Under the pieces are notes generated by a model, which ran no database searches, had not been told where the DNA came from, and saw nothing but the letters and a program-made list of their open reading frames with translations. Shown here piece by piece: positions 47,386 to 63,126 of a stretch of DNA of 64,000 bases (position 1 is its first letter; each line of letters starts with the position of its first letter). The DNA is from Deltaproteobacteria bacterium (GTDB lineage Bacteria; Desulfobacterota; Deferrimicrobia; Deferrimicrobiales; Deferrimicrobiaceae): positions 83,288-147,287 of the forward strand of contig JACRCO010000071.1 of NCBI GenBank assembly GCA_016218975.1, written 5' to 3'. Both the position numbers and the translations under genes were made by a program.

Positions 47386-49812
47386 TTATTTTTTCTCCGC
47401 GGGGGGCTCCTTCGGCGGTTCCTTGCGCTCGTAGCGGATTCCCTTCGTCTCGCCGAAACGCTGCTTGAGCTCCAGGACGCGCTCCTCGAAGTCGCGGCTG
47501 AGCTGCGTCCCTTCCTCCACGCTGGAGATGACCCGCGGGGTAATGAAGACGAGCAGTTCGTTCCGGGTCATCGTGTCCGAGCGGGCGCCGAATATCCAGC
47601 CGATGATCGGGATTTTGTAGAAGAACGGGAGACCCTCCCGGTTCCGCGCCTGCCGCTCCTTGACCAGTCCGCCGAGGACGATGCTCCGGTCCTGCGTGGC
47701 GACGAGCGTCGTCTGGATGTTCCGCTTGAAGAAGCTTGGGTTCGTCGTTCCGGTGGACTCCGTGCTGCTGACTTCGCTTACCTCCTGCTCGATCTCGAGC
47801 GTAACGATCCCCTGGTCGTTGATGTACGGGGTAAAAGACAGGATGACGCCGACGTCACGATACTCCACGGTCTGCGTGGTGACCGGGGGATTGGAGTTGG
47901 CGACGATCGACGCCGTTGTGACGGGGACTGAGTCCGCGACCTGGATCTTCGATTTCCTGCCGTTGGCGGCGATCACGCTCGGGGAGGAAAGGATGGAAAC
48001 CTTGCCGTCGTTGGCCAGCGACCGGAAGGCGGCCGTCAGGCGGTCGGTCCTGTCCACCATGTATCGCAGGCCCGACGTGAATGCCGCCGCCGATGTCGCC
48101 ATGGAGACGTTGTGCCTGTAATCGCCGAACTGGCGGATATACGTCCAGTCGACACCCAGCTTGAGGGTGTCGTCGAGCTGCACCTCCCCAATCAGCACTT
48201 CGAGAAGAACCTGGCGCGGGTAGACGTCGATCGCCTTCAAGGTCTCGAGTATGGCGGCGTACTCCGAAGCGCTACCGCGGATTATGAGCGAGTTGGTCGT
48301 CTCGTCCGCGATGATGTCGTACCCTTCTCCCTCCTTCTTTTCGGGGGTGTGCGCGGCGGGTTTCGGCGCCGCGGCCTGCTGCGCGGGAGGCGGGGCGGTC
48401 AGGATCGTCGGCTTGACCGGTTCGGCGAACTGCGGCTTGAATTCCGTGGGCTTCGACGGAAGCCCCGTCGCGCGCGACGGGTAGAGCTTCTCCAGGATGG
48501 CCACGATGTCCTTTACCTTGCCGTGCCGGACCCGGTACAGGTGCACCGCGCGTGATGTGCTGGACGGTTCACGGTCGAGCTCCTTGATCCAGCGCTCCAC
48601 CTCGTCCATCGTCCTGGGCGAGGCGCTCACCACGAGCAGGGAGTTCAGGCGCACAAGCGGAACGAAGTTTATCCCGGACGGGCGTCCGCCCTTCGCACCG
48701 AAATCGAGGGCGCCGAAGATGGCATCCAGGCTTTTTGCCATTTCGTCGGGGTCCAGGAATTTAAGAGGAAACATCCTGACTCCCGCGGACTTGAACGCGT
48801 CCGCGTCGAACAGTTCCACGAGCCTGACATGCTTGTCCATGTTGCCGGCCGTGTCGGTCACAAGCAGCATGTTCGCCCGCGGCACTTCCGTGGCGTCACC
48901 CCCCGCGGACAGGAACGGGCGGATCACCTTCGCCATTTCCGCCGCGGCGATGTATTGCAGCGGGAAGGCCCGCATCGTGGGCCGGTTGGGAGAAAACGGA
49001 TCCTCCTTCGCGCCTTCGATCAGCGGTTCCATTTTCGCTTCGTTCATCGGGACGATGTGGTAGACGTTCCCCTCCCTGACCGCCGTGGCGCCGTTTACGC
49101 GCAAAATGGAGAACAGGATCTCGAGAGCGTCGTCCTTCTTCACCGTCCCCTGCGTGTGTACGTTGACGACGCCACGTACCCTGGGGTCGATGATGTAGTT
49201 GATCCCCGCAATCCGTCCGAGCGTATGGATCACTTCGTAGACGTCGGCGTTGTTGAACTTGACCAGGAACCCTCCGCCCGCGGCCGCGGGAACAGGCCGC
49301 TGCGGCAAGGCGAGCGGGCGCGGAACCGGCATGGGTCGAGCCGGGACACGAGGGGGAGCGACGGGGGCTTCCGCCGCGGGCGCAGGCGCTGCCGGGGCAG
49401 GCTCGGCGGTCCTTGGTTCGGCCGGAGCCGGGGTCTCTTCCGGCGGCGCGGGTTCGGCCGTTTTCGGAGCCGCAGGAGCGGGTGTTTCCTCCGGCGGAGC
49501 CTGCTCGGCGGTTTCGGAAGGAACAACCGGTTCCTCGACGAGCGTCGATCCGGCGGGAGGGGGCGAAGTTGTGGAAACCGCGGGCAGCCCTTCCGCCGCG
49601 GGCGGGGGCGCCGCCGCGTCGGCCGGAGGCGCCGGCGTTCCGTTCGTTGCCGTTTTTCCCGCCTCATTGCCGTTGGAAGGAGGCGGCGGCGGAACGGGCG
49701 GCTTCTGCTCGATCAGGTCGAGCGTCCGGTGGGGAAGGGGACCGATCTCTACCGCCCCCACGGACACGGCAATAGCCAGCAAAGCAAGAATCGCAAGGAT
49801 ACGAGGTATCAT
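47386..49812 (-). CDS. gspD: Type II secretion secretin with a long Pro/Ala-rich N-terminal extension
   Basis: Secretin N-domains and core (LIIRGSASEYAAILETLKAIDVYPRQVLLEVLIGEV...VLGGL...PFFYKIPIIGWIFG). ATG 49812 lies behind GGGGGAG. About 145 residues of P/A-rich sequence precede the first N-domain. Confidence 0.9.
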   Translation of the reverse strand: MIPRILAILALLAIAVSVGAVEIGPLPHRTLDLIEQKPPVPPPPPSNGNEAGKTATNGTPAPPADAAAPPPAAEGLPAVSTTSPPPAGSTLVEEPVVPSETAEQAPPEETPAPAAPKTAEPAPPEETPAPAEPRTAEPAPAAPAPAAEAPVAPPRVPARPMPVPRPLALPQRPVPAAAGGGFLVKFNNADVYEVIHTLGRIAGINYIIDPRVRGVVNVHTQGTVKKDDALEILFSILRVNGATAVREGNVYHIVPMNEAKMEPLIEGAKEDPFSPNRPTMRAFPLQYIAAAEMAKVIRPFLSAGGDATEVPRANMLLVTDTAGNMDKHVRLVELFDADAFKSAGVRMFPLKFLDPDEMAKSLDAIFGALDFGAKGGRPSGINFVPLVRLNSLLVVSASPRTMDEVERWIKELDREPSSTSRAVHLYRVRHGKVKDIVAILEKLYPSRATGLPSKPTEFKPQFAEPVKPTILTAPPPAQQAAAPKPAAHTPEKKEGEGYDIIADETTNSLIIRGSASEYAAILETLKAIDVYPRQVLLEVLIGEVQLDDTLKLGVDWTYIRQFGDYRHNVSMATSAAAFTSGLRYMVDRTDRLTAAFRSLANDGKVSILSSPSVIAANGRKSKIQVADSVPVTTASIVANSNPPVTTQTVEYRDVGVILSFTPYINDQGIVTLEIEQEVSEVSSTESTGTTNPSFFKRNIQTTLVATQDRSIVLGGLVKERQARNREGLPFFYKIPIIGWIFGARSDTMTRNELLVFITPRVISSVEEGTQLSRDFEERVLELKQRFGETKGIRYERKEPPKEPPAEKK

Positions 49813-49833
49813 GCCGTTCTCCCCCACAAGAAG

Positions 49834-50595
49834 TTATCGCTGCCCGGGCACGTAAGTCGGCCGGACCCTGCCCCTGTACGGTCTTTGCTGAAATGCCTCG
49901 GCCGGGCTCCCCGTAAGGCCGGGCGGCGCAACGGATGCGGGAGCCTGCGTCTTTGCCGGGACCGCACCGGCCGACCCCGTGCGAGCGGGCGCAGATACCG
50001 AGTCCGCCCTGATTGGAGCCGGCGGCGGGCGCGTCTGCCCTGCGGAGGCGGGAGACGCCTGCGTCGACGGGAGATCGGTCCGAAGGCCGCCCGTTCCCTG
50101 GACCTTCGGGGCTCCGGCGTACAGGGGCAGCAGGAACTCCTTCCCGTCGGCCTCCAGAAGCACTCCGTCCTGCTGGATCTCCTTCACCACGAATCCGGGC
50201 AGCGTTTCCCCGGGGCTGAGTTCGTACCGCTCAGGCCGTCCGGGAGACTTGCCGGTAACCACGGCCTTCTTCATGTCCCCGAGAAGAAGAACTCCCAGGA
50301 GCGTGAATCGGGATAGTTCTTGATCGTAGTTGCGCGCGGGAACGATCGAGGCGTTTTCCTGGAACGGCCGCCGGTCCGGCCGGAAGACCGGCCTTGCCGT
50401 GATGTACGCCACGGGAGCGGACAGTTCCACCGCCTGCGGGGGATCCTCCGGGGATATGCCGATCGGGGGAACGGCGGGGGCTGAGGGCGGCGGCGGAATC
50501 CCGTAAGCCGGCCCGGTCCAGGCGCGGTATGTCCGCCAGCCGAAGAAGAGCGCGGCAAGCGCCAGCGCGATCATGAGGAATCCCGGCCGCTTCAT
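49834..50595 (-). CDS. T2SS inner-membrane component, GspC/GspN/PilP-like (assignment tentative)
   Basis: 253 aa with one N-terminal TM helix (MKRPGFLMIALALAALFFGW), a small beta-rich domain (RFTLLGVLLLGDMKKAVV...PGFVVKEIQQDGVLL) and a P/A-rich tail. ATGA overlap with the upstream gene. The call relies mainly on its position before gspD. Confidence 0.5.
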   Translation of the reverse strand: MKRPGFLMIALALAALFFGWRTYRAWTGPAYGIPPPPSAPAVPPIGISPEDPPQAVELSAPVAYITARPVFRPDRRPFQENASIVPARNYDQELSRFTLLGVLLLGDMKKAVVTGKSPGRPERYELSPGETLPGFVVKEIQQDGVLLEADGKEFLLPLYAGAPKVQGTGGLRTDLPSTQASPASAGQTRPPPAPIRADSVSAPARTGSAGAVPAKTQAPASVAPPGLTGSPAEAFQQRPYRGRVRPTYVPGQR

Positions 50596-51221
50596 TCTCC
50601 CGGCCTTTCCGCTTTCGCTTCGGCATCGGAGCCTGCGATTCCGGCCACAACGACCGAAGTAACCAGGTTTTCCTTCCGGTTCGCCGTGGTTGCGCCGTAG
50701 TATCCTGAATGGACGGATAATTTCTTCACGCGAAGGATCTTGGGATGCCGCGCCGCTTCGGCAAGCATACGCGCCAGCCCCTCCGTCGTCGTCTGGAAAT
50801 CGATCTGGACCGCCACTTCGGCGTATGATCCCCGCTGCACGGGGGCGAGCGTACGTACGGAAGTGACGCGCGTGTCGGGGCGTTCCAGCCAGGGTTTGAT
50901 CATACCCTGGAGCGCGGAAGCGGAAGCGGCGGGGCTGTCTCCCGGCAAAAGCCCCTCCTCGAGTTCCTCGAGCCGCACGGCCGCATCGGCCAACGCAAGG
51001 TCGATCGTCCCCTCTCCCGCCGCCGCGAGGCGGTAACGAGCGAGAGTCCCCATGCGCTGCGGAACGGCTGACCTGGCTCTTTTGTAGGAATCGACCGCCG
51101 GATACACTCCGATCCGGATCACTGCGAATACGAGGACGAACCCGACTCCAAGGAGCAGGAGGAGCCGCTCTCTCTGGGAGAGGGCGCGAATCCTCGCCTT
51201 GATACGCGCGACGGCGCTCAC
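50592..51221 (-). CDS. gspM: GspM/PilO-like T2SS assembly protein
   Basis: 209 aa, bitopic (LLLLLGVGFVLVFAVIRIG), with a coiled-coil and then an alpha/beta domain. Position between gspL and gspC/N. Confidence 0.55.
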   Translation of the reverse strand: MSAVARIKARIRALSQRERLLLLLGVGFVLVFAVIRIGVYPAVDSYKRARSAVPQRMGTLARYRLAAAGEGTIDLALADAAVRLEELEEGLLPGDSPAASASALQGMIKPWLERPDTRVTSVRTLAPVQRGSYAEVAVQIDFQTTTEGLARMLAEAARHPKILRVKKLSVHSGYYGATTANRKENLVTSVVVAGIAGSDAEAKAERPGE

Positions 51222-52672
51222 GGTTTTTTCCTTGCTTCGGCCGGAGTTTCCGGCGGGACGGGCGAGAATTCCGCCCGGATCTGGAACCGTTCGAGGTTGT
51301 CCGCCTGCCGGGTGATCGGCGATGCGAATTCCACCTTTCGGAACTGCCCGTCCCGTGCGAGAGCCGGAAAGATTTCGTTCGCGGAAGGGGAAAGCCCGTC
51401 AAGCTCGACCTTCAGGTCCTCCATGCGCAGGCCGGTCAGCCATGTGCCCTGAGGCAGGCGTTCCGTCAATTGCCGCAGGACGAGGATCTGCTCCTCTCGG
51501 CCCGCTCTCGCCTCCTTGAGGTATGCGATCCGCCCCTCCAGGTCGCCGAGGATGGCAAGCGTCTCCTCCACCCGCGCCACTTCGGGACGAAGGGATGCTA
51601 TTTCGGCGTCGAGCCGGTCGACTGCCTGCTTCGTGCGCACGGCAACGGATGCAGGCCAGGAAAGCGCCAGGAGAAGGGCGGCCGCGGCGAGCGCGATCGT
51701 GGCGGTACGGGCCGTCGTGCGAAGCCTTTCGCCTTCCTTATCCGGGGAAAGAAGATCCGGGCCCTTTTCGCAAAGCGCAGCGCCCAAAGCGCCCAGCACC
51801 CGCCAGAAACGCGCCGGATCCGCCGCGTCCTCCCCCGGCAACGCCATCGCCGCTGACATCCTGTTCTCGAAACCCTCGACCGGATTTGCGCGTTCCGTTC
51901 CTGCCTGCGGAAAACGACCTTCGCGAATCCACCAGGATGGCGCGTACACGCTCGCTTCCGCCTCGGTGACCGAATCGGGCGCATCTATCAGCGACTCGGA
52001 GAGCAGGTTCAACGCTTCCACGGGGGAACCCTCCGGAGGACAGGCTCTCACCGCGGAGAAGAACGGCTCTCCGCCGGCAATCGCCGTGCATTCAACGCCT
52101 CCGTCCATTTCCCTCAGGACCGCGCAAAGTTTCCCGTCGCTCACCGCCTGCTCCCCGGCCCATCGGCAGGTTTCCGACATCGCCCATCCCGACGGAACGG
52201 CCGCGCCGAGGGAAAGCCCCGCACGGGAAACAAGCTCCTCCCATCGTTCGATATACTCCGAAGAGGCCGCGACGAGGACCAGCCGGACATCCTTTCGGCC
52301 CGCGGCGCCGTCCAGGCGGCGCCAGTTGAATTTCAGCCGGGATGCGGGGACCGGGAAGATCCTGTCCAACTCCAGAGAGAGCGCAGGGCGAAGGTCTTTG
52401 CTCTTCAATGGCGGGAAGGGAATCCTGGCGAGGAAAACCTTTTCGGCAGGGATGGCCAGCCTGGCCTCGCAACCGGCGAGGCCGTTGCGCGCCACGAAAT
52501 CGGCAAGGACGCTCTCGGCTTCCGCCATCCGGATCTGCTCCCTGTCGCCGCGAAGTTCGACAGCCACAGGAGGGACGGCCACCGAGGGACGGCCGACTCC
52601 ATACCGGACTGCCGACAACGCCAGGCGCTTCCCCGAGGGGTCGATGCCCACGACCGTTCGGAAGAGGTTCAT
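51218..52672 (-). CDS. gspL: GspL-like (PilM-PilN-type) T2SS assembly protein
   Basis: 484 aa. Actin-like N-domain (VVGIDPSGKRLALSAV...), a central TM helix (ATIALAAAALLLALSW), and a C-terminal PilN-like coiled-coil and ferredoxin-like region. Confidence 0.6.
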   Translation of the reverse strand: MNLFRTVVGIDPSGKRLALSAVRYGVGRPSVAVPPVAVELRGDREQIRMAEAESVLADFVARNGLAGCEARLAIPAEKVFLARIPFPPLKSKDLRPALSLELDRIFPVPASRLKFNWRRLDGAAGRKDVRLVLVAASSEYIERWEELVSRAGLSLGAAVPSGWAMSETCRWAGEQAVSDGKLCAVLREMDGGVECTAIAGGEPFFSAVRACPPEGSPVEALNLLSESLIDAPDSVTEAEASVYAPSWWIREGRFPQAGTERANPVEGFENRMSAAMALPGEDAADPARFWRVLGALGAALCEKGPDLLSPDKEGERLRTTARTATIALAAAALLLALSWPASVAVRTKQAVDRLDAEIASLRPEVARVEETLAILGDLEGRIAYLKEARAGREEQILVLRQLTERLPQGTWLTGLRMEDLKVELDGLSPSANEIFPALARDGQFRKVEFASPITRQADNLERFQIRAEFSPVPPETPAEARKKP

Positions 52673-52675
52673 CGG

Positions 52676-53590
52676 TCACACCACCTCTTCCAGCGAGAGG
52701 AAGTCCATCCACCGGAGTATTTTCACGGTTTTCGTTCCCGCCCCGGAGACTTCCACCCGGCACTCCACGCCTCTTGCGGTCTTTCCGCCGGCCTTCCCCA
52801 CGGAAGTGATCGTATATACCCGTCCCTGCGGAGAAGTTGTAAATATCGCAGCCGCCGCGGGCGGCACTCCCGCATCCGCAAGATATTCCGCCACCTCCGC
52901 CGGAGACCGGAAGGGATTCTCCTCGCGCCTCGACACGACGGCATCGGCCGCACGGCGAGTGAAGCCCGGGAGCACCCGCAGCAGCGCGGCGGGCGCCGAG
53001 TTGATATCAACCGACGGGGAAGCGCCGTGAACGGTGAACGCTTTCGACAGAAGCCGGACGAAAAGATCCGGCGTCACGCCGTTGACCGAAAGAAGCTCGT
53101 CCACGCTCACGAATTTGCCGTTGCGGATCTTGACGGGTGCGGGCAGGGACGCATAATGGGCATCCTCCGCTCCGTTCGGACGCGGCATATCGTCCGCATC
53201 TCTCCAGTCCAGGATTGAATCTCCTACCCGTTCCGCGTCTTCCGTGGACAGCCCACCGTTTCTCAAGACATCTTTCAACACCGTCTCGGTAACGAAATTG
53301 ACGTCGATCTTTCCGCTTTCGGAGGCGATGCGCGTTTCGTAGGAGGCGTCATCCTCCTCTCCTTTCAGCGGTTCCCTGAGGGCGTTGTCGATGGGAGAAA
53401 CGGAGAGTTGGAAGATCGCGCGATTTACCCCGGTGCGAGCCTGGTAGTAGGCCCGTGCGGAATCGACACCGTTGCGTGCGGCAAGAGCCTCGGTCCGCAT
53501 CGCGAACGAGAAGGACATCGCCATTATCCCCAGCAGAAGCATGGCCCACAGGACGACGAGCTGCGCGATTCCACGCGAGCCGCGCATCAT
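52676..53590 (-). CDS. gspK: Minor pseudopilin GspK
   Basis: 304 aa. The hydrophobic N-terminus lacks Glu5. DSILDWRDADD...GAEDAHY...FVSVDELLSVNGV is GspK-typical. Confidence 0.8.
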   Translation of the reverse strand: MMRGSRGIAQLVVLWAMLLLGIMAMSFSFAMRTEALAARNGVDSARAYYQARTGVNRAIFQLSVSPIDNALREPLKGEEDDASYETRIASESGKIDVNFVTETVLKDVLRNGGLSTEDAERVGDSILDWRDADDMPRPNGAEDAHYASLPAPVKIRNGKFVSVDELLSVNGVTPDLFVRLLSKAFTVHGASPSVDINSAPAALLRVLPGFTRRAADAVVSRREENPFRSPAEVAEYLADAGVPPAAAAIFTTSPQGRVYTITSVGKAGGKTARGVECRVEVSGAGTKTVKILRWMDFLSLEEVV

Positions 53591-54231
53591 GCACCTCCCG
53601 CCGGGAGGGGGATGACCAGCGCGGTTTTCCGGGGACCGCTCTCCGACGGGGTGACGAATTCCACCCTGACGGCTGCCGGCAGGACCTTTTTCTCCTTGCT
53701 GTCCCACGTTTCCACCCATTCCCACTTGCCTTCTTCCGTAGGTCCAGGCGAGTACCCGAAGGCAATTTCGGAGGCTTCGGAGAGCAGAACACGCGGCCGT
53801 TCGTTCCCTTCCCATGGCTCAACACCCTCCGCCCGCAAAGGCGATCCCTCGGATAACATCAATCCGGATGCATTTCGCGAGGAATCTCTTCCAAAAAAAC
53901 AGAGCAGCCGGAAACCGCCGCCGGAAATGGATGAAGGAGCCGCCGCGGAGAGAAACCGGATTTTTCCCCTTTCCCCCCGGAAATAGGATACGGAGATACC
54001 CTCCGAGGGGAGAACCGCCAACGGATCCGCGGACCGTACCGCCCGCTCCAATACCTCCGTTCCAGCGCGCAGTCTCGCCATTGCGGCGGCCTCCTCCCCT
54101 CCGCGCGAAATCGAATGCCCCGCCAGCCGAAACGCAACGGCAAGGAAAGCCGCGATCGCGGCAATGATCGACAGGGACACGACCATCTCAAGGAGGGTGA
54201 ACCCTCCTACGCGCTTCGCGCCGCTATCCAT
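53587..54231 (-). CDS. gspJ: Minor pseudopilin, GspJ-like
   Basis: Prepilin leader MDSGAKRVG|GFTLLEMVVSL. About 200-aa mature protein. Position between I and K. Confidence 0.6.
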   Translation of the reverse strand: MDSGAKRVGGFTLLEMVVSLSIIAAIAAFLAVAFRLAGHSISRGGEEAAAMARLRAGTEVLERAVRSADPLAVLPSEGISVSYFRGERGKIRFLSAAAPSSISGGGFRLLCFFGRDSSRNASGLMLSEGSPLRAEGVEPWEGNERPRVLLSEASEIAFGYSPGPTEEGKWEWVETWDSKEKKVLPAAVRVEFVTPSESGPRKTALVIPLPAGGA

Positions 54232-54709
54232 CGCGTTTCCTTTCCCACCTGGTGGCGGAGACGCTGACCGCGCGATCCCTGCCTCCATCGTCCCATCGTA
54301 CCGTCACCTGGACATGCACCGGCCGGTACGGGCGTCCCTCCTCCTCCGGCAGGAAGGACGTTCGGGCGGTCCAGCGGTACTTTTCCCCGAAGAGCCCGGT
54401 TTCCTCACCCTCCGCGGGCGAAGGAGCGAGCATCGCCTCCTCCAGCCGCTGGGAGGCGTACAGCGATGCGGCATTCGAGTCCCTCGCGCCCCCCGCCAGG
54501 CGCAAGGAGCCCGACAGCAACTCGATCAGCCCCAGCAGTCCCGCGGCAAGAATCGCAAGGGCTACGATCACTTCAAGGAGCGTAAACCCTCCTTCGCGCT
54601 TCGCGCTTCGGAGGGCAGGCTCCCAGCCGCGCTTCGCGCTTCGGAGGGCAGGCCCCCAGTCGCGCTTCGCGCTTCGGAGGGCAAGCCCCGGTTCGCGCTT
54701 CGCGATCAT
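54224..54709 (-). CDS. gspI: Minor pseudopilin, GspI-like, with a 41-aa repeat-expanded leader peptide
   Basis: MIAKRE-[PGLALRSAKRD][WGPALRSAKRG][WEPALRSAKRE]-GG|FTLLEVIVALAIL. About 120-aa mature part. ATG 54709 overlaps the stop of the upstream pseudopilin (ATGA). No alternative in-frame start codon lies nearer the G|F site. Confidence 0.65.
   Translation of the reverse strand: MIAKREPGLALRSAKRDWGPALRSAKRGWEPALRSAKREGGFTLLEVIVALAILAAGLLGLIELLSGSLRLAGGARDSNAASLYASQRLEEAMLAPSPAEGEETGLFGEKYRWTARTSFLPEEEGRPYRPVHVQVTVRWDDGGRDRAVSVSATRWERKRDG
54595..54705 (-). repeat. About 3.4 copies of a 33-bp in-frame tandem repeat within the pseudopilin leader
   Basis: Plus-strand units CGCGCTTCGCGCTTCGGAGGGCA(G/A)G(C)(T/C)CCC.. 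begin at 54595, 54628 and 54661, with a partial unit at 54694. Each unit contains an internal GCGCTTC duplication. Confidence 0.85.
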
Positions 54710-55167
54710 GTGCCCTCCCCGACCATCCCGGTCAGGGGGTCCACCAGAATGCGCACTATTCCTCCGCCCGGGGAGGAGACCGCCACCTCCGCCTCGTCGG
54801 CGCTTCCGTCAGGGCGGAAACGTACGCGGACGACTCCGCGTTCCGCAATCGCGTCCCCGAACCGGACGGTCGCCAGCCGGATGCCTTCCGGCAGCGTCCA
54901 TCTCCGCTCGTCTCCGTCGATGCCGTACTCGCCTTTCCCCAGGTCCAGGGCCACGGAACGCCCCCGGGCCTCCGATACCGCCTGCGTCCGCGCAAGGTTG
55001 AGCGCGGCGCGCACTTCTCCCGCGCTCCCCCGAAGCCGGGCGGATTCGACGGCCCCCGGCAGGGACGGGAGAACCAGGGCCGCGAGCATTCCCATGATCG
55101 CGATCACGAGGATCAGCTCGAGTAGGGAAAATCCTCCCCTTCCGATGTATTTTCCCCGTGCCGTCAA
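54706..55167 (-). CDS. gspH: Pseudopilin, GspH/FimT-like
   Basis: Leader MTARGKYIGRG|GFSLLELILVIAIMGMLAAL, then the ...ARLRGSAGEVRAALNLARTQAV pattern of the GspH family. The TTG start overlaps the gspF TGA (TTGA). Confidence 0.65.
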   Translation of the reverse strand: MTARGKYIGRGGFSLLELILVIAIMGMLAALVLPSLPGAVESARLRGSAGEVRAALNLARTQAVSEARGRSVALDLGKGEYGIDGDERRWTLPEGIRLATVRFGDAIAERGVVRVRFRPDGSADEAEVAVSSPGGGIVRILVDPLTGMVGEGT

Positions 55168-56387
55168 AACGGAACCTCGTTCAGCCGGAATATCGCAAGA
55201 AACATGGAGAAGACGATGAATCCCACAAGGATCCCCATTCCGAGGATCACCGCGGGCTCGAGAAGGACGAGAAACCGCTGGAGCCCCCGTTTCGCGGTGT
55301 CCTCGAAGGCGTCGGCGACGGATGCGAGCATCTCCTCGAGCCGTCCGGTTTCCTCCCCGACGGCGATCATCTGGAGAGCCATTTCCGGTATCGGGGTCGT
55401 CTCCGAAAGCGAACGGGCGACCTTCGCGCCTCCCTGCACGCGGAGACGCGCGGCTTCCATCCCGTCTCGGACTGCGGTATTGCCACTTACTTCCTTCGCT
55501 ATCAGGAAGGCGGAGAGGATGGGAACGCCCCCCGTGAGCAGGGAAGAAAGCGAACGCATGATCCGCGAAGTTTCCATCGCCGTGAGGATCCCTCCCATTC
55601 CCGGCAGGCGCAGCTTCGCCCGGTCCCAGTCCCGCCGGACCTCGGGGCGGCGCAATGCCGCGGAAACCAGGAACCAGGCGAACGCGCCCGCGATAAGAAG
55701 CAGCAGTCCCTGCTCTTTCAGGAACGTGCTCGTGGAAAGAAGGATTTGCGTCGGCATGGGGAGAGCCACACGGGAGGCCGCAAAGACCGCGACGAATCGG
55801 GGAACGACGAATATCAGGAGAAGAATGACGGAGAGGACCGAAGCGCCGAGAAGGATGGACGGGTAAAGAAGCGATCCGATCAGGTTGGACCGGAATTCCC
55901 TGGACCTCGCAAGGAAGAGGCAGACCTGGTCCAGCGCTTCTTCCATGCGTCCCGTGGCCGCCCCGGCGTTGACCATCTGGACCGTGAAGCGGTCGAAGGG
56001 AGCGCCGGGCGCCCGCCTCATCGCGTCGGCCAGGGAACTTCCCGCGCGGACATCCCTGAGGATCTCCGCCGCCGCCGCTCCCATCGGCCTGCCGCGATAC
56101 AGGTCCGAGAGCATTTCCAACGCCCTGTCCACCGGGACACCGGCGACCAGCAGCGTCCGCAAGCCCTGGAGGAACGGAAGGAGGTCGCGTTTCCCTCCTC
56201 TCCACCGGATCGCTGCCGGGGCCTCCGCCGATGATTTCGCGGCAGCAGGCGTAGCGGGCCACACCCGGATCGGCTGGAAACCCTTTTCCCGAAGCTGTTC
56301 CGCGGCAACCCGTTCTTCGGCCGCCTCGACCATCCCTTCGGAGACGCGACCCGTGCGGTCGGCAGCCCGGTATCCGAACACCGCCAT
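55164..56387 (-). CDS. gspF: T2SS inner-membrane platform protein
   Basis: 407 aa with the duplicated GspF/PilC domain architecture (LRTLLVAGVPVDRALEML..., SLSSLLTGGVPILSAFLIA...), polytopic. Confidence 0.9.
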   Translation of the reverse strand: MAVFGYRAADRTGRVSEGMVEAAEERVAAEQLREKGFQPIRVWPATPAAAKSSAEAPAAIRWRGGKRDLLPFLQGLRTLLVAGVPVDRALEMLSDLYRGRPMGAAAAEILRDVRAGSSLADAMRRAPGAPFDRFTVQMVNAGAATGRMEEALDQVCLFLARSREFRSNLIGSLLYPSILLGASVLSVILLLIFVVPRFVAVFAASRVALPMPTQILLSTSTFLKEQGLLLLIAGAFAWFLVSAALRRPEVRRDWDRAKLRLPGMGGILTAMETSRIMRSLSSLLTGGVPILSAFLIAKEVSGNTAVRDGMEAARLRVQGGAKVARSLSETTPIPEMALQMIAVGEETGRLEEMLASVADAFEDTAKRGLQRFLVLLEPAVILGMGILVGFIVFSMFLAIFRLNEVPF

Positions 56388-56425: not shown

Positions 56426-58132
56426 TCAACCGCCGCGCGTCACCCGGAGCACTTCCTCGATCGTGGTGATCCCGCGCCGGGTTTTCTCCCAGCCGTCTTC
56501 CCTGAGAAGCGTCATCCCGCGCGCGACTGCGCGTTCCCGGATCGCTCCGGCGTCGGCACGGGCCAGGATCAGGTCCTTTATCTCCTCGTCGAAGGGTAGC
56601 AGCTCGAAGATCCCCATCCGTCCGCGATAGCCGGTGCCGCCGCAGGCGTCGCATCCCGCACCGATGCGCAGGTCGCCGTCGGGCGCGAATCCCGTCTCCC
56701 GCAGGACCTCCTCGCGGAACGCGGCCGAGATCGCTCTCGGCGATGAACACCGTTCGCAGATCGTCCGAACGAGCCGTTGGGCAAGCACCCCGACGAGCGA
56801 TGAAGGAAGCAGGTACTCCTCCACGCCCATCTCCAGCAGGCGCGTTACGGCGCCGGCTGCGTCATTCGTATGCAGGGTGGAAAGCACAAGATGCCCGGTG
56901 AGCGCGGAGTGGATGGCGATCTCGGCGGTCTCCCGGTCGCGGATCTCCCCCACCAGGATCACGTCGGGGTCCTGCCGGACGATGGACCGAAGGCCCGAGG
57001 CGAACGTCAGCCCGATCTGGGGCTTTACCTGGATCTGGTTCACGCCGGAGATCTGGTACTCGACCGGGTCCTCGATGGTGATGATCTTCCGCGCGGCGCT
57101 CTTGATCTCCTGCAGGGCGCCGTAAAGCGTCGTCGTCTTTCCGCTTCCCGTGGGACCGGTCACCAGGATCATCCCGTGCGGAACGCCCGCCATACGCCTG
57201 AAGCGTTCAAGCGTATCCTCCGGGAATCCCAGGCGGCCCAGGTTCAGCGGGACGGAGGACTGGTCCAGGATCCGGATTACGACGCTCTCGCCGAACAGTG
57301 TGGGGACTGTGGACACGCGGAAGTCGATCTCCTGCCCGCCGATACGGAGCTTCACCCGTCCGTCCTGCGGCAGGCGGCTCTCGGCGATGTTCAGCCGTGC
57401 CATGATCTTTATCCGCGACAGGATCGCCGTCTGGAGCCGCTTGGGCGGCGCCTCGACGTCTTCCAGCATCCCGTCGATGCGGTACCGGACTCGCAACGTT
57501 TTTTCGTACGGCTCAAGGTGGATATCGCTCGCTCCCCGCTCGATCCCCCGCGCGAGGATGAAGTTCACAAGGCGGATGATGGGTGCCTCGGAGGCTGCGC
57601 CGATCAGCCGCTCGACCCGCTCGTCGCCGCCGGCGCGCTCCTCTCCCTCCTCTCCCACCTGCTCGACCAGCCGCTCCATCGAAGAGGCGCTCTCTCCGCA
57701 CAATTTCTCGATCGCCTCGCGGATCTCCTCCTCCGTTCCGGCCTGGACCTCGACGCGGCGGCCCGTTGCCTTGGCGACCGCCTCCCGGGTGTCGACGTCC
57801 AGCGGGTCCGACATTGCCACGGTAAGCGTTCCGTCGGAGAGAGATACCGGGACGATCAGTTTCGCGCGAAGGAACGGCAGGGGCAGGAGGTCCGGCGGAA
57901 CCTGCCGCATCCCATCGACATCACGGAGGAAAGGAGGGATGCCGCAGATGGTTTCATAGGCGCGCCGAAGCGCCTCGGGGTTGAGGATTCCCCGGGCCAG
58001 GAGAGCTTTCGGGAAAGCGGCGCCCGCCGTCCGCGCAAGGTCGAGCAGCGTTTCCCGCTCCCCCTCCGGGACGGTAAGGGAGGAAACGAGCATTTCCTGG
58101 AAGGAACGTCGATTCATCCTTTTCACCGCCAC
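56426..58132 (-). CDS. gspE: T2SS ATPase
   Basis: 568 aa. Walker A GPTGSGKTTT, Asp/His boxes, and a tetracysteine motif (CERC...CDACGGTG). The start is ambiguous (GTG 58132 or ATG 58117). Confidence 0.9.
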   Translation of the reverse strand: MAVKRMNRRSFQEMLVSSLTVPEGERETLLDLARTAGAAFPKALLARGILNPEALRRAYETICGIPPFLRDVDGMRQVPPDLLPLPFLRAKLIVPVSLSDGTLTVAMSDPLDVDTREAVAKATGRRVEVQAGTEEEIREAIEKLCGESASSMERLVEQVGEEGEERAGGDERVERLIGAASEAPIIRLVNFILARGIERGASDIHLEPYEKTLRVRYRIDGMLEDVEAPPKRLQTAILSRIKIMARLNIAESRLPQDGRVKLRIGGQEIDFRVSTVPTLFGESVVIRILDQSSVPLNLGRLGFPEDTLERFRRMAGVPHGMILVTGPTGSGKTTTLYGALQEIKSAARKIITIEDPVEYQISGVNQIQVKPQIGLTFASGLRSIVRQDPDVILVGEIRDRETAEIAIHSALTGHLVLSTLHTNDAAGAVTRLLEMGVEEYLLPSSLVGVLAQRLVRTICERCSSPRAISAAFREEVLRETGFAPDGDLRIGAGCDACGGTGYRGRMGIFELLPFDEEIKDLILARADAGAIRERAVARGMTLLREDGWEKTRRGITTIEEVLRVTRGG

Positions 58133-60048: not shown

Positions 60049-61725
60049 TTACGGAAATGGAACCGGGGCCGTGGCGGACCCGCCTGCGCCCGTCACCGTC
60101 ACCGTGTCGGGCTTCGCCGGAAGCCGCATAACTTCCGCCTCGTAAAGGTCGAGCCCCGAGCGATAGACCAGCGGCACGGGTGCGGAGGCGCCAGGCCACG
60201 TGACGGTCATGCTGTCCGTGCCCGCGGCGGCGCCGGAGGTCGCCCGCACGATCAGGCGCTCTCCTCCGACGAAGTCGGTGCTGACGATCGCCAGAGGAGT
60301 GGTTGCGCCCACCACCGCCGATGTAACGGGAACAGGGGGCGACCAGTTCCCCTCGGAATCCTGGCTGCGGATCCAGATGGTGTTGTCGGCGGGGATCGCC
60401 GAGGTCGGGACGTACGCCGCAAGATCGCTTACCGCGGCAGTTCCGAACGTCCCCGTCATCGGGTTTCCATATCCCTCCCGAACGGTTTTATCCGAAATCC
60501 ACTCGGCCGCCACGACGTTGCTGTTGCCGGTGGCGCTGTCGTCCGCCGTCGCGGCGAGAACAACAGGGGATATACCCGAGGAAGGATCGAACGAAGCAGG
60601 CGCGGTGACCGGTCCCGTCACGTCGGCCCCCTGCACCCCCAGGAACGTGAGATAGCCGCCGGGATATGCCCCGTTATTGTTCACGTAGAGCCGCCGGTCG
60701 ACGACCGGGACTTTCTTCGCCGGGGCCGAAGGCACCAAAAGGACGTCCTTGGTCTTACCCGGGGGAAGGAATACGGTATGGTGCCTCCCCGGGTAGGGGA
60801 GAAGGTTTCCGTCCTCGCCGATGACCGATACATAGGTATTCATGAAAGACGGAGCGTGCGCATTCAGGTCCGCGTTCAGGAATCGGAGGAGGGTCCCGTT
60901 GCCGCCCGGAGGTCCGATCGGCAGCGGGTCATGATGATTGACAAGAGGATCCACCTGGTTTTGATACGGCTTCCCGTTGACAAGGAAATACTTCGGCTCG
61001 TATTCGAACGTGGTGGGGAGGACATCGGTGCCGTAAGTATTATCGACTACCGCGTTGTGAAGGAACGGGTCGATCGCGCTGTAGAGGAGCACGAGTTCGT
61101 TATCGAAAGTCGTGTTCGGGTTCGTGGCAGTCGGCGGATAAGCCTGCGCCGGATCCGCAGGGCGCACGATCAGTGCGCCGTAGATCCCCATCTGGACCTG
61201 GACGGAGGGGTCGGCGCCGCTTTGATAGAGGAACGTCCCCGATTTCGACAGCGTGAACCGGTAAGTACGCGTGCCGTTGTCGGCGGGCGTCATCTGCGTG
61301 AAGGAGACGACCCGCGGCGGCAGGGAGACGTTGTCCACGACCGGGGTGACGAAAACCGGCCCCTGCTGGGCAAGGGGCGTTCCCGGAGGGTTCTCCACGA
61401 CCGGCATTCCGAGTCCGGGGATGACCAGAGAAATCCCGTTCCCTGTCCCGATGACTGTGTTGTCGGAAGGCAACTCGTTGATCAGAGTGACAACCAGGTC
61501 GTCTCCCACGGTCCCGACGAGCGTGGGGCCGGGGAACCCGAGGACGTTGTCCGTGCCCGCATTGGCGATCTTCCAGACGGGGATGACCGCATTGTCCGGC
61601 ATTACGGCGTTATCCGCCGCCACCCGCAGGGTATAGGTCACCGAGGAAGCGACTCCCGCCGTGGCCGCAAGGAACGCCGCAGCCAGGAGGACCACCCCGA
61701 TTTTTCTGAGCGCATGAGTACGCAT
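60049..61725 (-). CDS. Ligand-less cupredoxin pair with a C-terminal Ig-like extension (protein C', paralog of C)
   Basis: 558 aa. GPTLVGTVGDDLVVTLINEL...GTFLYQSGADPSVQVQMGIYGALIVRP parallels protein C. No HxH or HCH motifs. Confidence 0.8.
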   Translation of the reverse strand: MRTHALRKIGVVLLAAAFLAATAGVASSVTYTLRVAADNAVMPDNAVIPVWKIANAGTDNVLGFPGPTLVGTVGDDLVVTLINELPSDNTVIGTGNGISLVIPGLGMPVVENPPGTPLAQQGPVFVTPVVDNVSLPPRVVSFTQMTPADNGTRTYRFTLSKSGTFLYQSGADPSVQVQMGIYGALIVRPADPAQAYPPTATNPNTTFDNELVLLYSAIDPFLHNAVVDNTYGTDVLPTTFEYEPKYFLVNGKPYQNQVDPLVNHHDPLPIGPPGGNGTLLRFLNADLNAHAPSFMNTYVSVIGEDGNLLPYPGRHHTVFLPPGKTKDVLLVPSAPAKKVPVVDRRLYVNNNGAYPGGYLTFLGVQGADVTGPVTAPASFDPSSGISPVVLAATADDSATGNSNVVAAEWISDKTVREGYGNPMTGTFGTAAVSDLAAYVPTSAIPADNTIWIRSQDSEGNWSPPVPVTSAVVGATTPLAIVSTDFVGGERLIVRATSGAAAGTDSMTVTWPGASAPVPLVYRSGLDLYEAEVMRLPAKPDTVTVTGAGGSATAPVPFP

Positions 61726-61743
61726 CGATTCGTCCTCCTCTTC

Positions 61744-63126
61744 CTACGGGATGTCCACCCCGGGGGGTATGATGACCATGAAGGTCATGATCCCGCCGGG
61801 GAAAACGTCGTTGTTGGTCATTTCCTTCTCGGAGTGCGAATGCCAGATCTGGAAGAAGGCGCCGTTCGTGTTGAATTTCCCGAACCCGGGCGGGAGTGCG
61901 CCCAACTGACCCAGGAACGGGCTGCCGCTGAAGAAATCTCCCGCCGAGAGGTCATCCTGTTCCGGTATCCCGACCGGAAACGGCTTGCCGTGGTCCGCAC
62001 ACCACTCGGAAGTGACCGGATCGAACCCTTGTGCGTTCGGCGCGCAGTCGTGCGCCGTCAAGGGATCGTTCGGGTCGCCGTAGACGTCCCAGCCCAGGGC
62101 CTTGCCCGTCCATTCGAATGTCGAGTCCGACGTCCGGCCCGGGACCGTCGTCACGGTAAAGGCCAACTCACCGAGATCGGCGCCCACGTTGGCGAAATCG
62201 GCGGGATCGCTGGTCAGGGGCATCGCGTCCCATGCGATGACGCGAGTATGGTTGGAATGCGGGTGGAAGGGGTGCTGGTCCCTTCCCATCGATATGAGGC
62301 GTATGAGAGACTTCTCGCCCGGGTGCATCATGGGCAGCGCATTATACGGCTGGTGGGGGAGATAGGACGCGCCCGCCGCCCCCATGGTATCGGGCGAGTT
62401 GCGCCCGTTGATGAACCAGTAGACGGGGAAGAATGTGGTCGTGTCGATTTCTTCCCCCCTCTCCACCTGGTTGTGGTACCGGTCGTCCATCTCGCTCAGG
62501 ATGAACAGGAACTCCCGGCCCGCGGTGTAAGCGGAAGAGGATTCGCCGTATGCCGTCGGGGCGGCGGGGTTGAAGACCGCCGGCCGGACGATGATCGCCC
62601 CGAAGAGCCCCATTTCTAACTGCTTGTCCATGTTCGTCCCGCTCTGGTAGTAGAAGGTCCCCGGCCTGCCTGCCACGAAGGTGTAGGTGACGGTGCTCTG
62701 TCCTCCCGGCGGCGCCTCCCAGGTGAAGATCCCGCGGATACCGTTGTTGTCCGAGGGCGTGGCGGTAACGCTGTCCATCCCGGGGAAGAGAAGCGAAACC
62801 GGATCGGGGAGCCAGTTCCTGAGCGTAACGGTGACGGTGTCCCCCTCATTGACGATCAGGGTGGGGCCGGGGTACTGGACCGAAACGGTCCCCGAGGGCG
62901 GGTTTCCGTCGGCGTAGCCCCAGAAGAACAGGTTGTTGCCGTCGCCGTTCTGTATGTAGTCGCTCGCGGCGACCAGTGAGAAGGAGGTCCCCGTCAATCC
63001 CGGGATCTCCGCTCCGGCCGGGACGGCGAAAAAGAGGGCCGAGGCAAGGACACAGAGAACCCCCATCCCGATTTTCCTGCTTGGCGTCCAGCGCATGGCG
63101 TTCCTCCCCGTGCCGAAGGTCTTCAT
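61744..63126 (-). CDS. Two-domain cupredoxin protein B' (paralog of B)
   Basis: 460 aa. HPFHPH (nt 62257-62274) and WHSH (nt 61834-61845). The N-domain is ligand-less (LLFPGM, FYYQSGT...EMGLFGAIIVRP). Confidence 0.85.
   Translation of the reverse strand: MKTFGTGRNAMRWTPSRKIGMGVLCVLASALFFAVPAGAEIPGLTGTSFSLVAASDYIQNGDGNNLFFWGYADGNPPSGTVSVQYPGPTLIVNEGDTVTVTLRNWLPDPVSLLFPGMDSVTATPSDNNGIRGIFTWEAPPGGQSTVTYTFVAGRPGTFYYQSGTNMDKQLEMGLFGAIIVRPAVFNPAAPTAYGESSSAYTAGREFLFILSEMDDRYHNQVERGEEIDTTTFFPVYWFINGRNSPDTMGAAGASYLPHQPYNALPMMHPGEKSLIRLISMGRDQHPFHPHSNHTRVIAWDAMPLTSDPADFANVGADLGELAFTVTTVPGRTSDSTFEWTGKALGWDVYGDPNDPLTAHDCAPNAQGFDPVTSEWCADHGKPFPVGIPEQDDLSAGDFFSGSPFLGQLGALPPGFGKFNTNGAFFQIWHSHSEKEMTNNDVFPGGIMTFMVIIPPGVDIP

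What the first reader, a model, noticed from the sequence alone, without database searches (positions are those of the whole stretch)
54595..54709. In-frame 3 x 33-bp tandem expansion inside a pseudopilin leader peptide
The GspI-like pseudopilin starts at an ATG that overlaps the upstream stop. It reads MIAKRE-[PGLALRSAKRD]-[WGPALRSAKRG]-[WEPALRSAKRE]-GG|FTLLEV. Removing the three 11-aa units leaves MIAKREGG|FTLLEV, a canonical short prepilin leader. The leader therefore seems to have grown from about 8 to 41 residues by tandem duplication of a unit that includes its own AKRE end. No in-frame ATG, GTG or TTG lies closer to the G|F cleavage site, so the expanded leader should be translated. The unit contains an internal GCGCTTC duplication and is a plausible slipped-strand substrate. 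Copy number could therefore vary and tune processing by the prepilin peptidase or the level of this minor pseudopilin. I am not aware of repeat-expanded leaders in T2SS pseudopilins.
Basis: seen in the sequence. Interest (0 to 1): 0.7.

Follow-up and report, generated by a model that had tools for sequence, protein, structure and literature searches.

The report
Repeat-built leader peptide on a pseudopilin
A minor secretion-system pilin gene starts with three in-frame copies of a 33-base cassette, giving an unusually long 41-residue leader; the same cassette, which also folds into a conserved hairpin, turns up in varying copy number in sister pilin genes of related bacteria.

Summary
Window 54587-54704 (- strand) holds 3.4 in-frame copies of a 33-bp unit that fills almost the whole leader of a GspI-like minor pseudopilin (54224-54709, -). 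The ATG overlaps the gspH stop (ATGA), follows a GGGGAGGG Shine-Dalgarno sequence, and no nearer start codon exists. A second assembly reproduces the array.

The unit is not a local invention. It is an 11-codon leader cassette (P-A-L/P-R-S-A-K-R-x-G-G) found only in the leaders of gspH, gspI and gspJ genes of related Deferrimicrobiaceae-type T2SS operons. It is always in sense and in frame, at 0 to about 5 copies. Leaders reach 22, 33, 44 and 66 residues, against 6-26 in a standard review. Which gene carries it differs between genomes. Relatives 90-95% identical in the mature protein have unrelated leaders.

The cassette also encodes a stable hairpin ending at the Gly-1 codon. It shows compensatory changes and conserved rare codons, and ordinary pilin leaders lack it.

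Best reading: a translated leader, presumably cleaved, built from a slippage-prone dual-coding cassette. What the hairpin does is unknown. This is a new variant of a known kind, of moderate interest.

The parts
54224..54709 (-). GspI-like minor pseudopilin gene (161 aa prepilin; mature part 120 aa)
   Evidence: ORF. Pfam N_methyl 28.4 bits against a cut-off of 21.2. NCBIfam XpsI and GspI are the best named hits, both below their cut-offs. It lies between GspH-like and GspJ/K-like genes.
54587..54709 (-). Leader-peptide coding region, 41 codons, ending at the Gly-1 codon (54587-54589). The predicted cleavage site lies before the Phe+1 codon (54584-54586).
   Evidence: Translation and G|FTLLE motif.
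54587..54619 (-). Cassette unit 3 (terminal): CCTGCCCTCCGAAGCGCGAAGCGCGAAGGAGGG = PALRSAKREGG. All 10 tested base pairs of the hairpin form.
   Evidence: nhmmer 32.5 bits. RNA fold -20.7 kcal/mol, z = -4.2. 10/10 pairs.
54620..54652 (-). Cassette unit 2 (PALRSAKRGWE)
   Evidence: nhmmer. 8/10 pairs.
54653..54685 (-). Cassette unit 1 (LALRSAKRDWG)
   Evidence: nhmmer. 9/10 pairs.
54686..54704 (-). Partial unit (3' part of a cassette: ..TC GCG AAG CGC GAA CCG GGG), directly after Met1 and Ile2
   Evidence: TRF counts 3.4 copies. Weak nhmmer hit at 54688-54704.
54706..54709 (-). ATGA: the gspI start codon overlapping the gspH stop codon, which suggests translational coupling
   Evidence: The same ATGA or GTGA overlap occurs in relatives.
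54713..54720 (-). Shine-Dalgarno-like GGGGAGGG, 3 nt upstream of the ATG. It is formed by the conserved GEG codons at the gspH C-terminus and, in the predicted fold, pairs with the gspH 3' end.
54706..55167 (-). GspH-like pseudopilin gene (TTG start overlapping the gspF stop; 12-residue leader, no cassette)
53587..54231 (-). GspJ-like pseudopilin gene. It has a 10-residue leader, MDSGAKRVGG, that keeps only the 3' part of a cassette (54202-54221).
   Evidence: (nhmmer E = 0.15).

Best explanation
The array is a real, translated N-terminal extension of a class III (prepilin-type) signal peptide.

Shown: the leader of this GspI-like minor pseudopilin consists of Met-Ile followed by 3.4 tandem copies of a 33-nt, 11-codon cassette. 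The cassette is a lineage-specific leader module that occurs in gspH, gspI and gspJ genes of Deferrimicrobiaceae-type T2SS operons. Each cassette encodes a basic peptide (PA[L/P]RSAK[R/H]xGG, net charge about +2) that ends in the Gly-Gly preceding the cleavage site. On the sense strand each cassette also forms a stable stem-loop: a 6-7 bp stem, a 3x3 internal loop, a 4 bp stem and a GAA triloop. The 3' arm of the stem is the Gly-2/Gly-1 codons.

Inferred:
- Translation starts at the ATG coupled to the gspH stop.
- The long basic leader stays in the cytoplasm.
- The prepilin peptidase removes the leader after Gly41, so mature GspI is ordinary.
- The copies arose by replication slippage or unequal recombination, favoured by the unit's own hairpin and its GCGAAGC direct repeats.
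- Cassettes move between paralogous pseudopilin genes by gene conversion, anchored on the conserved GG|FTLLE segment. This makes leader length and content turn over much faster than the rest of the gene.
- The terminal hairpin appears to be under selection on the sense strand. The extra internal copies are most likely tolerated by-products that decay.
For: - Array and frame.
- Start site: no nearer start codon, ATGA overlap and a Shine-Dalgarno sequence. In every relative read at DNA level, the start at the gspH stop (4-nt or 1-nt overlap) is in frame with G|F. Leaders are 8, 8, 9, 22, 22, 22, 30, 33, 33, 41, 44 and 66 codons.
- Real sequence: a second assembly is identical.
- Homologous arrays: L092 has 33 bp x 4.7 and L093 has 33 bp x 3.3.
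- Cassette in other genes: L002 gspJ has 2.4 units with the terminal unit 33/33 identical to the window's; L005 has 2 units each in gspH and gspJ; L076 has them in gspH and gspI; L092, L094 and L006 in gspJ.
- Specificity: a unit profile hits only pseudopilin leaders, in sense and in frame, in about 290 kb of loci plus the window.
- Fast turnover: mature proteins 90-95% identical carry 8- versus 22-, 33- or 44-residue leaders. Flanking DNA is highly similar while the leader segment cannot be aligned.
- Paralogues within one genome share derived variants (L092 SAKMVGG, L100 RGVK, L093; L006 91% identical).
- Hairpin stability: -20.7 kcal/mol for 36 nt, z = -4.2. Four sequence-different variants adopt the same architecture.
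- Hairpin covariation: in 26 units 86.5% of cells pair, 7 of 10 pairs change on both sides, the covariation score is 0.338 against 0.130 shuffled (0/500), and slid controls pair at 38-62%. RNAalifold finds the same fold.
- Strand: G.U 13 against A.C 2. Terminal units pair at 9-10 of 10, internal units at 6-9.
- Hairpin specificity: 237 non-cassette pilin leaders show no excess structure, mean z = +0.14.
- Codons: CCT (13% of Pro codons), CGA (6% of Arg) and AGC/AGT (20%/1% of Ser) recur in the unit in most genomes examined.
- Tolerance of leader changes: a review states that the leader remains cytoplasmic, that only Gly-1 is critical and that leaders can be shortened (PMC4471445).
Against: - There is no direct evidence of translation, cleavage or expression.
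- Frame conservation is partly built in, because the unit is 33 nt and stop codons are rare at 62% GC.
- The second assembly may use the same reads.
- Copy-number variation is shown between species and strains, not within one population.
- The covariation rests on about 26 related units with perhaps 4-6 independent events, and I derived the tested structure from these same sequences.
- Conserved synonymous sites could reflect recent lateral spread rather than selection.
- L092 has ATG codons with a GGAG inside each internal unit, and some relatives have an in-frame TTG or GTG 13-15 codons before G|F. In those genomes a shorter leader is possible.
- Diverged cassette variants (L093, L100) have lost the hairpin.
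Confidence: 0.7

Rival explanations
1. The primary function is at the RNA level. The cassette is a cis-acting stem-loop in the polycistronic T2SS mRNA that sets the output of the downstream minor-pseudopilin cistron, for example through mRNA stability or processing, elongation speed, or reinitiation after gspH. Copy number tunes that output, and the peptide is a passenger that merely has to be an acceptable leader.
For: - Covariation, including changes in a mix of synonymous and non-synonymous positions.
- Conserved rare codons.
- G.U far more frequent than A.C, which points to the sense strand.
- The terminal hairpin is the best preserved.
- The hairpin is absent from 237 ordinary pilin leaders.
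- L005, whose GspI-like protein matches the window's at only 51% amino-acid identity (best tblastn segment), differs from the window's terminal unit at 2 of 33 nt, and both changes are compensatory.
Against: - No Rfam family matches.
- The element does not look like a terminator.
- In the predicted fold the repeats do not sequester the Shine-Dalgarno sequence or the start codon.
- Whole-array z-scores are modest, -2.9 to -0.6.
- Every cassette is in frame and in sense, so the peptide is constrained too.
- Most orthologues work without the cassette.
Confidence: 0.3
2. The function is at the peptide level. The basic PAxRSAKRxGG module is a cytoplasmic docking or recognition element for the cognate prepilin peptidase or another partner. 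The leaders of the minor pseudopilins of one genome therefore co-evolve, and extra copies alter processing kinetics.
For: - Paralogous leaders within a genome share derived variants.
- S-A-K and the terminal G-G are nearly invariant in canonical units.
- The cassette is always in frame.
Against: - Within one operon some pseudopilins carry the cassette and others do not. In the window only GspI has it; in L002 only GspJ; in L005 GspH and GspJ but not GspI. One peptidase therefore handles both kinds.
- Very close relatives lack the cassette entirely.
- Conservation of synonymous sites is not explained by a peptide role.
- In studied systems only Gly-1 is critical (PMC4471445).
Confidence: 0.12
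3. The repeat region is not translated as a leader. Translation starts elsewhere, or the gene is inactive, and the array is a structured spacer between gspH and gspI.
For: - Gene callers placed starts inside or after arrays in relatives: P0009 in L092, and a 47-nt gap before P0002.
- Some relatives have an in-frame TTG, GTG or ATG 13-15 codons before G|F.
- Open frames are cheap at 62% GC.
Against: - The window has no ATG, GTG, TTG, CTG, ATT or ATA between codon 2 and Phe+1. The same holds for ATG, GTG and TTG in L089.
- A start after G|F would destroy the pilin N-terminus.
- A Shine-Dalgarno sequence and the ATGA overlap sit at 54706-54720.
- All indels between leaders are multiples of 3.
Confidence: 0.06
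4. It is a REP- or MITE-like selfish palindromic element, or an assembly artefact, that happens to sit in a tolerant position.
For: - It is a GC-rich imperfect palindrome of about 33 nt in tandem clusters.
- A GTAG immediately precedes the G-run in the L092 and L076 units.
- Hairpin-bearing units seem to be the ones that propagate.
Against: - No copies lie outside pseudopilin leaders in the window or in about 290 kb of related loci. Orientation and frame are always the same.
- Copy number per genome is tiny.
- Two assemblies and several independent metagenomes show homologous arrays.
Confidence: 0.04

Closest known systems
Class III (type IV prepilin) signal peptides of T2SS minor pseudopilins GspH/GspI/GspJ
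   Same: A basic hydrophilic leader ending in Gly, then Phe+1, Glu+5 and a hydrophobic helix. The gene sits in a gspE-F-H-I-J-K-L-M-...-D operon. Cleavage by a prepilin peptidase on the cytoplasmic side is expected.
   Different: The leader is 41 residues here and up to 66 in L092, against 6-26 in the review PMC4471445. It is built from tandem 11-residue cassettes. Its coding sequence carries a conserved hairpin that ordinary pilin leaders lack.
Long leaders of type IVb pilins and Tad/Flp pilins (about 15-30 residues)
   Same: Long hydrophilic leaders removed by a prepilin peptidase.
   Different: Those leaders are not repetitive, are typical of their whole families, and belong to different machineries. 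Here length varies from 8 to 66 residues among near-identical orthologues.
Slipped-strand contingency repeats in leader-coding regions, such as the Neisseria opa CTCTT repeats (from my own knowledge)
   Same: Tandem repeats inside the signal- or leader-peptide coding region, with copy number prone to change.
   Different: The opa unit is 5 nt and switches the reading frame ON and OFF. Here the unit is 33 nt, so the frame is always kept and only leader length and hairpin number change. Variation within a population has not been shown.
REP/BIME extragenic palindromes, including their role as mRNA stabilisers within operons (from my own knowledge)
   Same: GC-rich imperfect palindromes of about 35 nt that can occur in tandem between cistrons of an operon.
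   Different: REPs are extragenic, occur in hundreds of copies and in both orientations. This cassette is coding, always in frame, and restricted to pseudopilin leaders.
The d(GCGAAGC) GAA-triloop mini-hairpin (from my own knowledge)
   Same: The core of the canonical unit is GCGC-GAA-GCGC, and GCGAAGC occurs in the canonical units.
   Different: That mini-hairpin is a biophysical motif and not a genetic element. Here it is only the tip of a longer stem-loop, and its relevance is inferred.

Membership tests
Type IV prepilin-like protein (class III signal peptide) | Gly at -1, Phe/Met at +1, Glu at +5, followed by about 20 hydrophobic residues | tested here: met
   ...REGG|FTLLEVIVALAILAAGLLGLI. 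Pfam N_methyl 28.4 bits against a cut-off of 21.2. TIGR02532 21.5 against 16.3.
Type IV prepilin-like protein (class III signal peptide) | Short hydrophilic leader (6-26 residues per PMC4471445) | tested here: not met
   The leader is 41 residues. It is hydrophilic and has a net charge of about +7.
Type IV prepilin-like protein (class III signal peptide) | Cleavage and N-methylation by a prepilin peptidase | not testable with these tools
   Needs biochemistry or proteomics. I did not look for a peptidase gene in the window.
T2SS minor pseudopilin GspI | Sequence match to GspI/XpsI models | tested here: inconclusive
   TIGR01707 gspI scores 41.1 bits against a cut-off of 44.35. NF047828 XpsI scores 47.6 against 150. 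These are the best named hits but both fall below threshold. JGI names many homologues general secretion pathway protein I.
T2SS minor pseudopilin GspI | Position between gspH and gspJ-gspK in a T2SS operon with E, F, L, M and D | tested here: met
Slipped-strand contingency (phase-variable) locus | Repeat-number change switches the reading frame or promoter spacing | tested here: not met
   The unit is 33 nt, so the frame is kept at any copy number.
Slipped-strand contingency (phase-variable) locus | Copy number polymorphic within a population or strain | not testable with these tools
The 90% protein cluster has a single member. Variation is shown only between strains and species.
REP/BIME-type repetitive palindrome | Extragenic, many copies per genome, both orientations | tested here: not met
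   There are no copies outside pseudopilin leaders. All copies are in sense and in frame.
Conserved structured cis-RNA element | Base pairs maintained by compensatory substitutions across homologues | tested here: met
   Seven of 10 pairs change on both sides, 86.5% of cells pair, 0 of 500 shuffles reach the score, and slid controls pair at 38-62%. RNAalifold agrees. Caveat: the sample is small and related, and the structure was derived from the same sequences.
Conserved structured cis-RNA element | Membership of a described RNA family | tested here: not met
   Rfam 15 gives only chance-level hits, E of at least 2.

The most novel reading that the evidence does not exclude
The 33-nt cassette is a previously undescribed dual-coding element: a selected sense-strand stem-loop embedded in the leader-peptide codons of minor pseudopilin genes. 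The stem-loop would act in cis to set minor-pseudopilin stoichiometry, or would serve as the recombination module that lets leaders be swapped between gspH, gspI and gspJ. Its copy number would be a fast-evolving tuning knob of the T2SS.
Probability: 0.3. Interest if true: 0.65.

Novelty: new variant of a known kind. Interest (0 to 1): 0.52.

Why it matters
Prepilin leaders are usually treated as short, featureless basic tags in which only the final glycine matters. In this lineage they are modular and repeat-built. They reach up to 66 residues, are exchanged among paralogous pseudopilins, and turn over far faster than the mature proteins. Their coding sequence also carries a covarying hairpin.

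If the hairpin or the copy number affects expression or processing, this would be a simple, evolvable way to adjust the ratios of the tip-complex pseudopilins GspH, GspI and GspJ. Control of that stoichiometry is poorly understood.

There is also a practical point for annotation. Gene callers mis-start these genes. P0009 was truncated by 40 codons, and several GspJ homologues were called from an internal Met.

Tried and rejected
1. Searching 1.84 billion representative proteins with the 47-residue leader plus FTLLEV returned only unrelated repeat proteins.
2. A four-unit leader profile searched against the 5.8-billion-protein set returned nothing at E of 10 or below, probably because of composition filters. 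The distribution of the cassette beyond the fetched loci is therefore unknown.
3. My first idea was that each unit's UGCCCUCC sequesters the gspI Shine-Dalgarno sequence (GGAGGGCA). The predicted fold does not support it. There the Shine-Dalgarno sequence pairs with the gspH 3' end and the repeats pair with each other.
4. The REP/RAYT idea, prompted by GTAG preceding the G-run in L092 and L076, was rejected because there are no extragenic copies.
5. An intrinsic terminator or attenuator in the array was not detected.
6. A G-quadruplex from the spaced G-runs is unlikely, because each G-run has a complementary C-run and the loops would be about 27 nt. This was reasoning only and was not computed.
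7. Rfam gave no match.
8. The metagenome scan with the family alignment returned only relatives at 58% identity or less, without cassettes in GspI. The close relatives had to be fetched one at a time.
9. The SAKREGG|F leader in Arenimonas (L008) is a peptide-only coincidence picked up by the search pattern. It uses different codons and has no hairpin.
10. No DNA could be fetched for the closest relative, P0002.

Full report
**1. Observation**

The gene lies on the minus strand at 54224-54709 and encodes 161 residues. Tandem Repeats Finder reports a 33-bp period with 3.4 copies and 90% matches at 54594-54704. The 24-nt core occurs three times in the window and nowhere else, against 0 matches in 100 shuffles.

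The translation is MIAKRE-PGLALRSAKRD-WGPALRSAKRG-WEPALRSAKRE-GG|FTLLEV. No codon between Met1 and Phe42 is ATG, GTG, TTG, CTG, ATT or ATA. The ATG overlaps the stop of the upstream gene as ATGA and sits 3 nt after GGGGAGGG. A Logan assembly of SRR12113407 is 100% identical over 8.2 kb, array included.

**2. Context**

Pfam and NCBIfam identify a T2SS-type operon on the minus strand:
- GspE, 56426-58132.
- GspF, 55164-56387.
- A GspH-like pseudopilin, 54706-55167.
- The GspI-like gene.
- A GspJ-like gene, 53587-54231.
- GspK, 52676-53590.
- A PilM/PilN-like GspL, 51218-52672.
- GspM, 50592-51221.
- A GspD secretin, 47386-49827.

Homologues come mostly from Candidatus Deferrimicrobiaceae and "Deltaproteobacteria" MAGs.

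**3. Leaders of relatives**

Of 120 GspI homologues, most have 4-10-residue leaders. A minority carry the same motif:
- Once, after an older degenerate copy: P0003 MTPLRSSNFGGPALRSAKREGG|F, and likewise P0011 and P0033.
- As decayed 33-residue leaders: P0015 and P0022.
- As a different 11-residue repeat: P0024, with 44 residues.

At DNA level, L092 (P0009) has 4.7 units. Its reading frame is open from the GTGA overlap with gspH, which gives a 66-residue leader. The gene caller had chosen an internal ATG. L093 has 3.3 units.

In every relative read at DNA level, the start codon that overlaps the gspH stop is in frame with G|F. The leaders are 8, 8, 9, 22, 22, 22, 30, 33, 33, 41, 44 and 66 codons. 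In L089 as well, no ATG, GTG or TTG lies nearer the cleavage site. A review gives 6-26 residues as the range for leader peptides (PMC4471445).

**4. The unit is a shared cassette, not a local invention**

A profile of the unit hits only pseudopilin leaders across the window and about 290 kb of related loci. Every hit is in sense and in the same frame. The gene that carries the cassette differs between genomes:

| Genome | Cassette distribution |
|---|---|
| Window | gspI 3.4 units; gspJ keeps only a remnant (SGAKRVGG) |
| L002 | gspI leader of 9 residues; gspJ 2.4 units, terminal unit 33/33 nt identical to the window's |
| L005 | gspH 2 units; gspJ 2 units; gspI none |
| L076 | gspH 2 units; gspI 2 units |
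| L092 | gspI 4.7 units; gspJ 2-3 units |
| L006 (binned as Planctomycetota) | gspI and gspJ 1 unit each, 91% identical to each other |

A search with the L002 GspJ protein found six more GspJ homologues with one or two cassettes, among about 55 with recognisable leaders.

Paralogues within one genome share derived variants: SAKMVGG in L092, RGVK in L100, and the PLPxT type in L093. Mature proteins 90-95% identical can carry 8- versus 22-, 33- or 44-residue leaders. In two such pairs the flanking DNA is highly similar while the leader segment cannot be aligned.

I read this as rapid turnover by tandem duplication and deletion plus exchange between paralogues. Co-evolution with a shared partner is the alternative.

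**5. The cassette is also a hairpin**

The terminal unit folds as a 7-bp stem, a 3x3 internal loop, a 4-bp stem and a GAA triloop. Its energy is -20.7 kcal/mol for 36 nt, with z = -4.2 and 0 of 200 shuffles as stable. Its 3' arm is the Gly-2/Gly-1 codons. Three other sequence variants give the same architecture.

Results on 26 distinct units:
- 86.5% of cells pair.
- 7 of 10 pairs show changes on both sides, for example CUC..GGA against CCC..GGG and CGCC..GGCG, and GCGC/GCGC against GUGC/GCAC, CCUGC/GCAGG and CGA/UUG.
- The covariation score is 0.338 against 0.130 for shuffles (0 of 500).
- Slid controls pair at 38-62%.
- RNAalifold independently predicts the same helices.
- G.U pairs outnumber A.C 13 to 2, which points to the sense strand.
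- Terminal units pair at 9-10 of 10 positions, internal units at 6-9.

The 237 pilin leaders without the cassette show no excess structure, with a mean z of +0.14, the same as control windows. The unit recurrently uses codons that are rare in this genome: CCT 13% of Pro codons, CGA 6% of Arg, AGC/AGT 20%/1% of Ser. The L005 unit differs from the window's at 2 of 33 nt, and both changes are compensatory, although L005's GspI-like protein matches the window's at only 51% identity in the best tblastn segment.

Caveats: the sample is small and related, I derived the structure from the same sequences, and lateral spread could mimic constraint.

**6. Mechanism**

Shown: an in-frame array of a dual-coding cassette in the leader; variable copy number and variable host gene across relatives; a covarying hairpin.

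Inferred:
- Translation is coupled to gspH. In the predicted fold the Shine-Dalgarno sequence is paired with the gspH 3' end.
- The leader, with a net charge of about +7, is retained in the cytoplasm.
- A prepilin peptidase removes it after Gly41, which leaves an ordinary mature GspI.
- Units are gained and lost by slippage or unequal recombination, promoted by the hairpin and the GCGAAGC direct repeats.
- Leaders are exchanged between paralogues by gene conversion.

The role of the hairpin is not established. The options are mRNA stability or processing, effects on translation, a recombination module, or simply a driver of mutation.

**7. What it is not**

It is not a frame-switching contingency repeat, because the unit is 33 nt. 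It is not a REP element, because it has no extragenic copies. It matches no Rfam family. It does not look like a terminator.

**8. Verdict**

The origin from an 8-residue leader is wrong, and the conserved cassette-plus-hairpin nature and its spread across gspH, gspI and gspJ were missed. Three literature searches found no description of repeat-built prepilin leaders. I rate this a new variant of a known kind, of moderate interest.

Noticed in passing
window 60049-63935 (-): Three ORFs with multicopper-oxidase domains lie about 2 kb upstream of gspE on the same strand; a PD40-repeat ORF and a 152-aa ORF with no family hit sit between them and gspE. This recalls the Geobacter T2SS (OxpG) that exports the multicopper oxidase OmpB. 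That link is from my own knowledge; a paper search listed relevant titles only.
   Followed up: partly
window 54713-54745 (-): In the predicted mRNA fold the gspI Shine-Dalgarno sequence (GGGGAGGG, the GEG codons of the conserved ...DPLTGxxGEGT* C-terminus of GspH) is paired with the CCCCUGACC segment of the gspH 3' end. This would make gspI translation depend on ribosomes finishing gspH. The C-terminal motif and the 4-nt overlap are conserved in relatives.
   Followed up: partly
L092 2412-2566: The 4.7-unit array has a higher-order 66-bp period, with alternating PAPRSAKMVGG and PAPQSAKMVGG units. Every internal unit carries an in-frame ATG preceded by GGAG at Shine-Dalgarno spacing, so this genome could make leaders of several lengths. 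The gene caller started at one of these ATGs.
   Followed up: partly
L093 196-330 and 700-785; L076 about 290-325: There is a second cassette class ((P/R)APLPxTxxTGG, 33 bp x 3.3) and a third class (PAPRSR[W/C/S]L[V/A]GG, seen in L076 gspI, L092 gspJ and L094 gspJ). The third class keeps the hairpin with a completely different inner stem. The second class does not fold.
   Followed up: partly
P0130, P0151, P0154, P0156, P0159, P0166, P0168 (GspJ homologues): Seven database GspJ proteins begin at MI(V/I)SLSIL, the Met+6 of FTLLEM. Gene callers cut off the whole class III signal peptide, possibly misled by the Shine-Dalgarno-like GGAGGG of the Gly-Gly codons.
   Followed up: no
window, whole 64 kb: A motif scan finds only three class-III-signal genes (the GspH-, GspI- and GspJ-like genes). 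No GspG-like major pseudopilin follows gspF here, although L005 has one before its gspH. I did not look for a prepilin peptidase gene.
   Followed up: no
window 51218-52672 (-): The protein in the GspL position is a 484-residue protein with a C-terminal PilN domain and weak PilM-like N-terminal similarity. It is more like a PilM-PilN fusion than a classical GspL.
   Followed up: no
window 49834-50595 (-), L001 5865-6626: A 253-residue gene between gspM and the secretin gene has no Pfam hit. It sits where GspN or GspC would be expected.
   Followed up: no
L006 3000-3520 (MAG binned as Planctomycetota): The core CGAAGCGCGAAGCG(A/C)GAAGG matches the window's at 19-20 of 20 nt. It occurs in both the gspI-like and gspJ-like leaders of a genome assigned to another phylum. 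This suggests lateral transfer of the operon or cassette, or a binning error.
   Followed up: no
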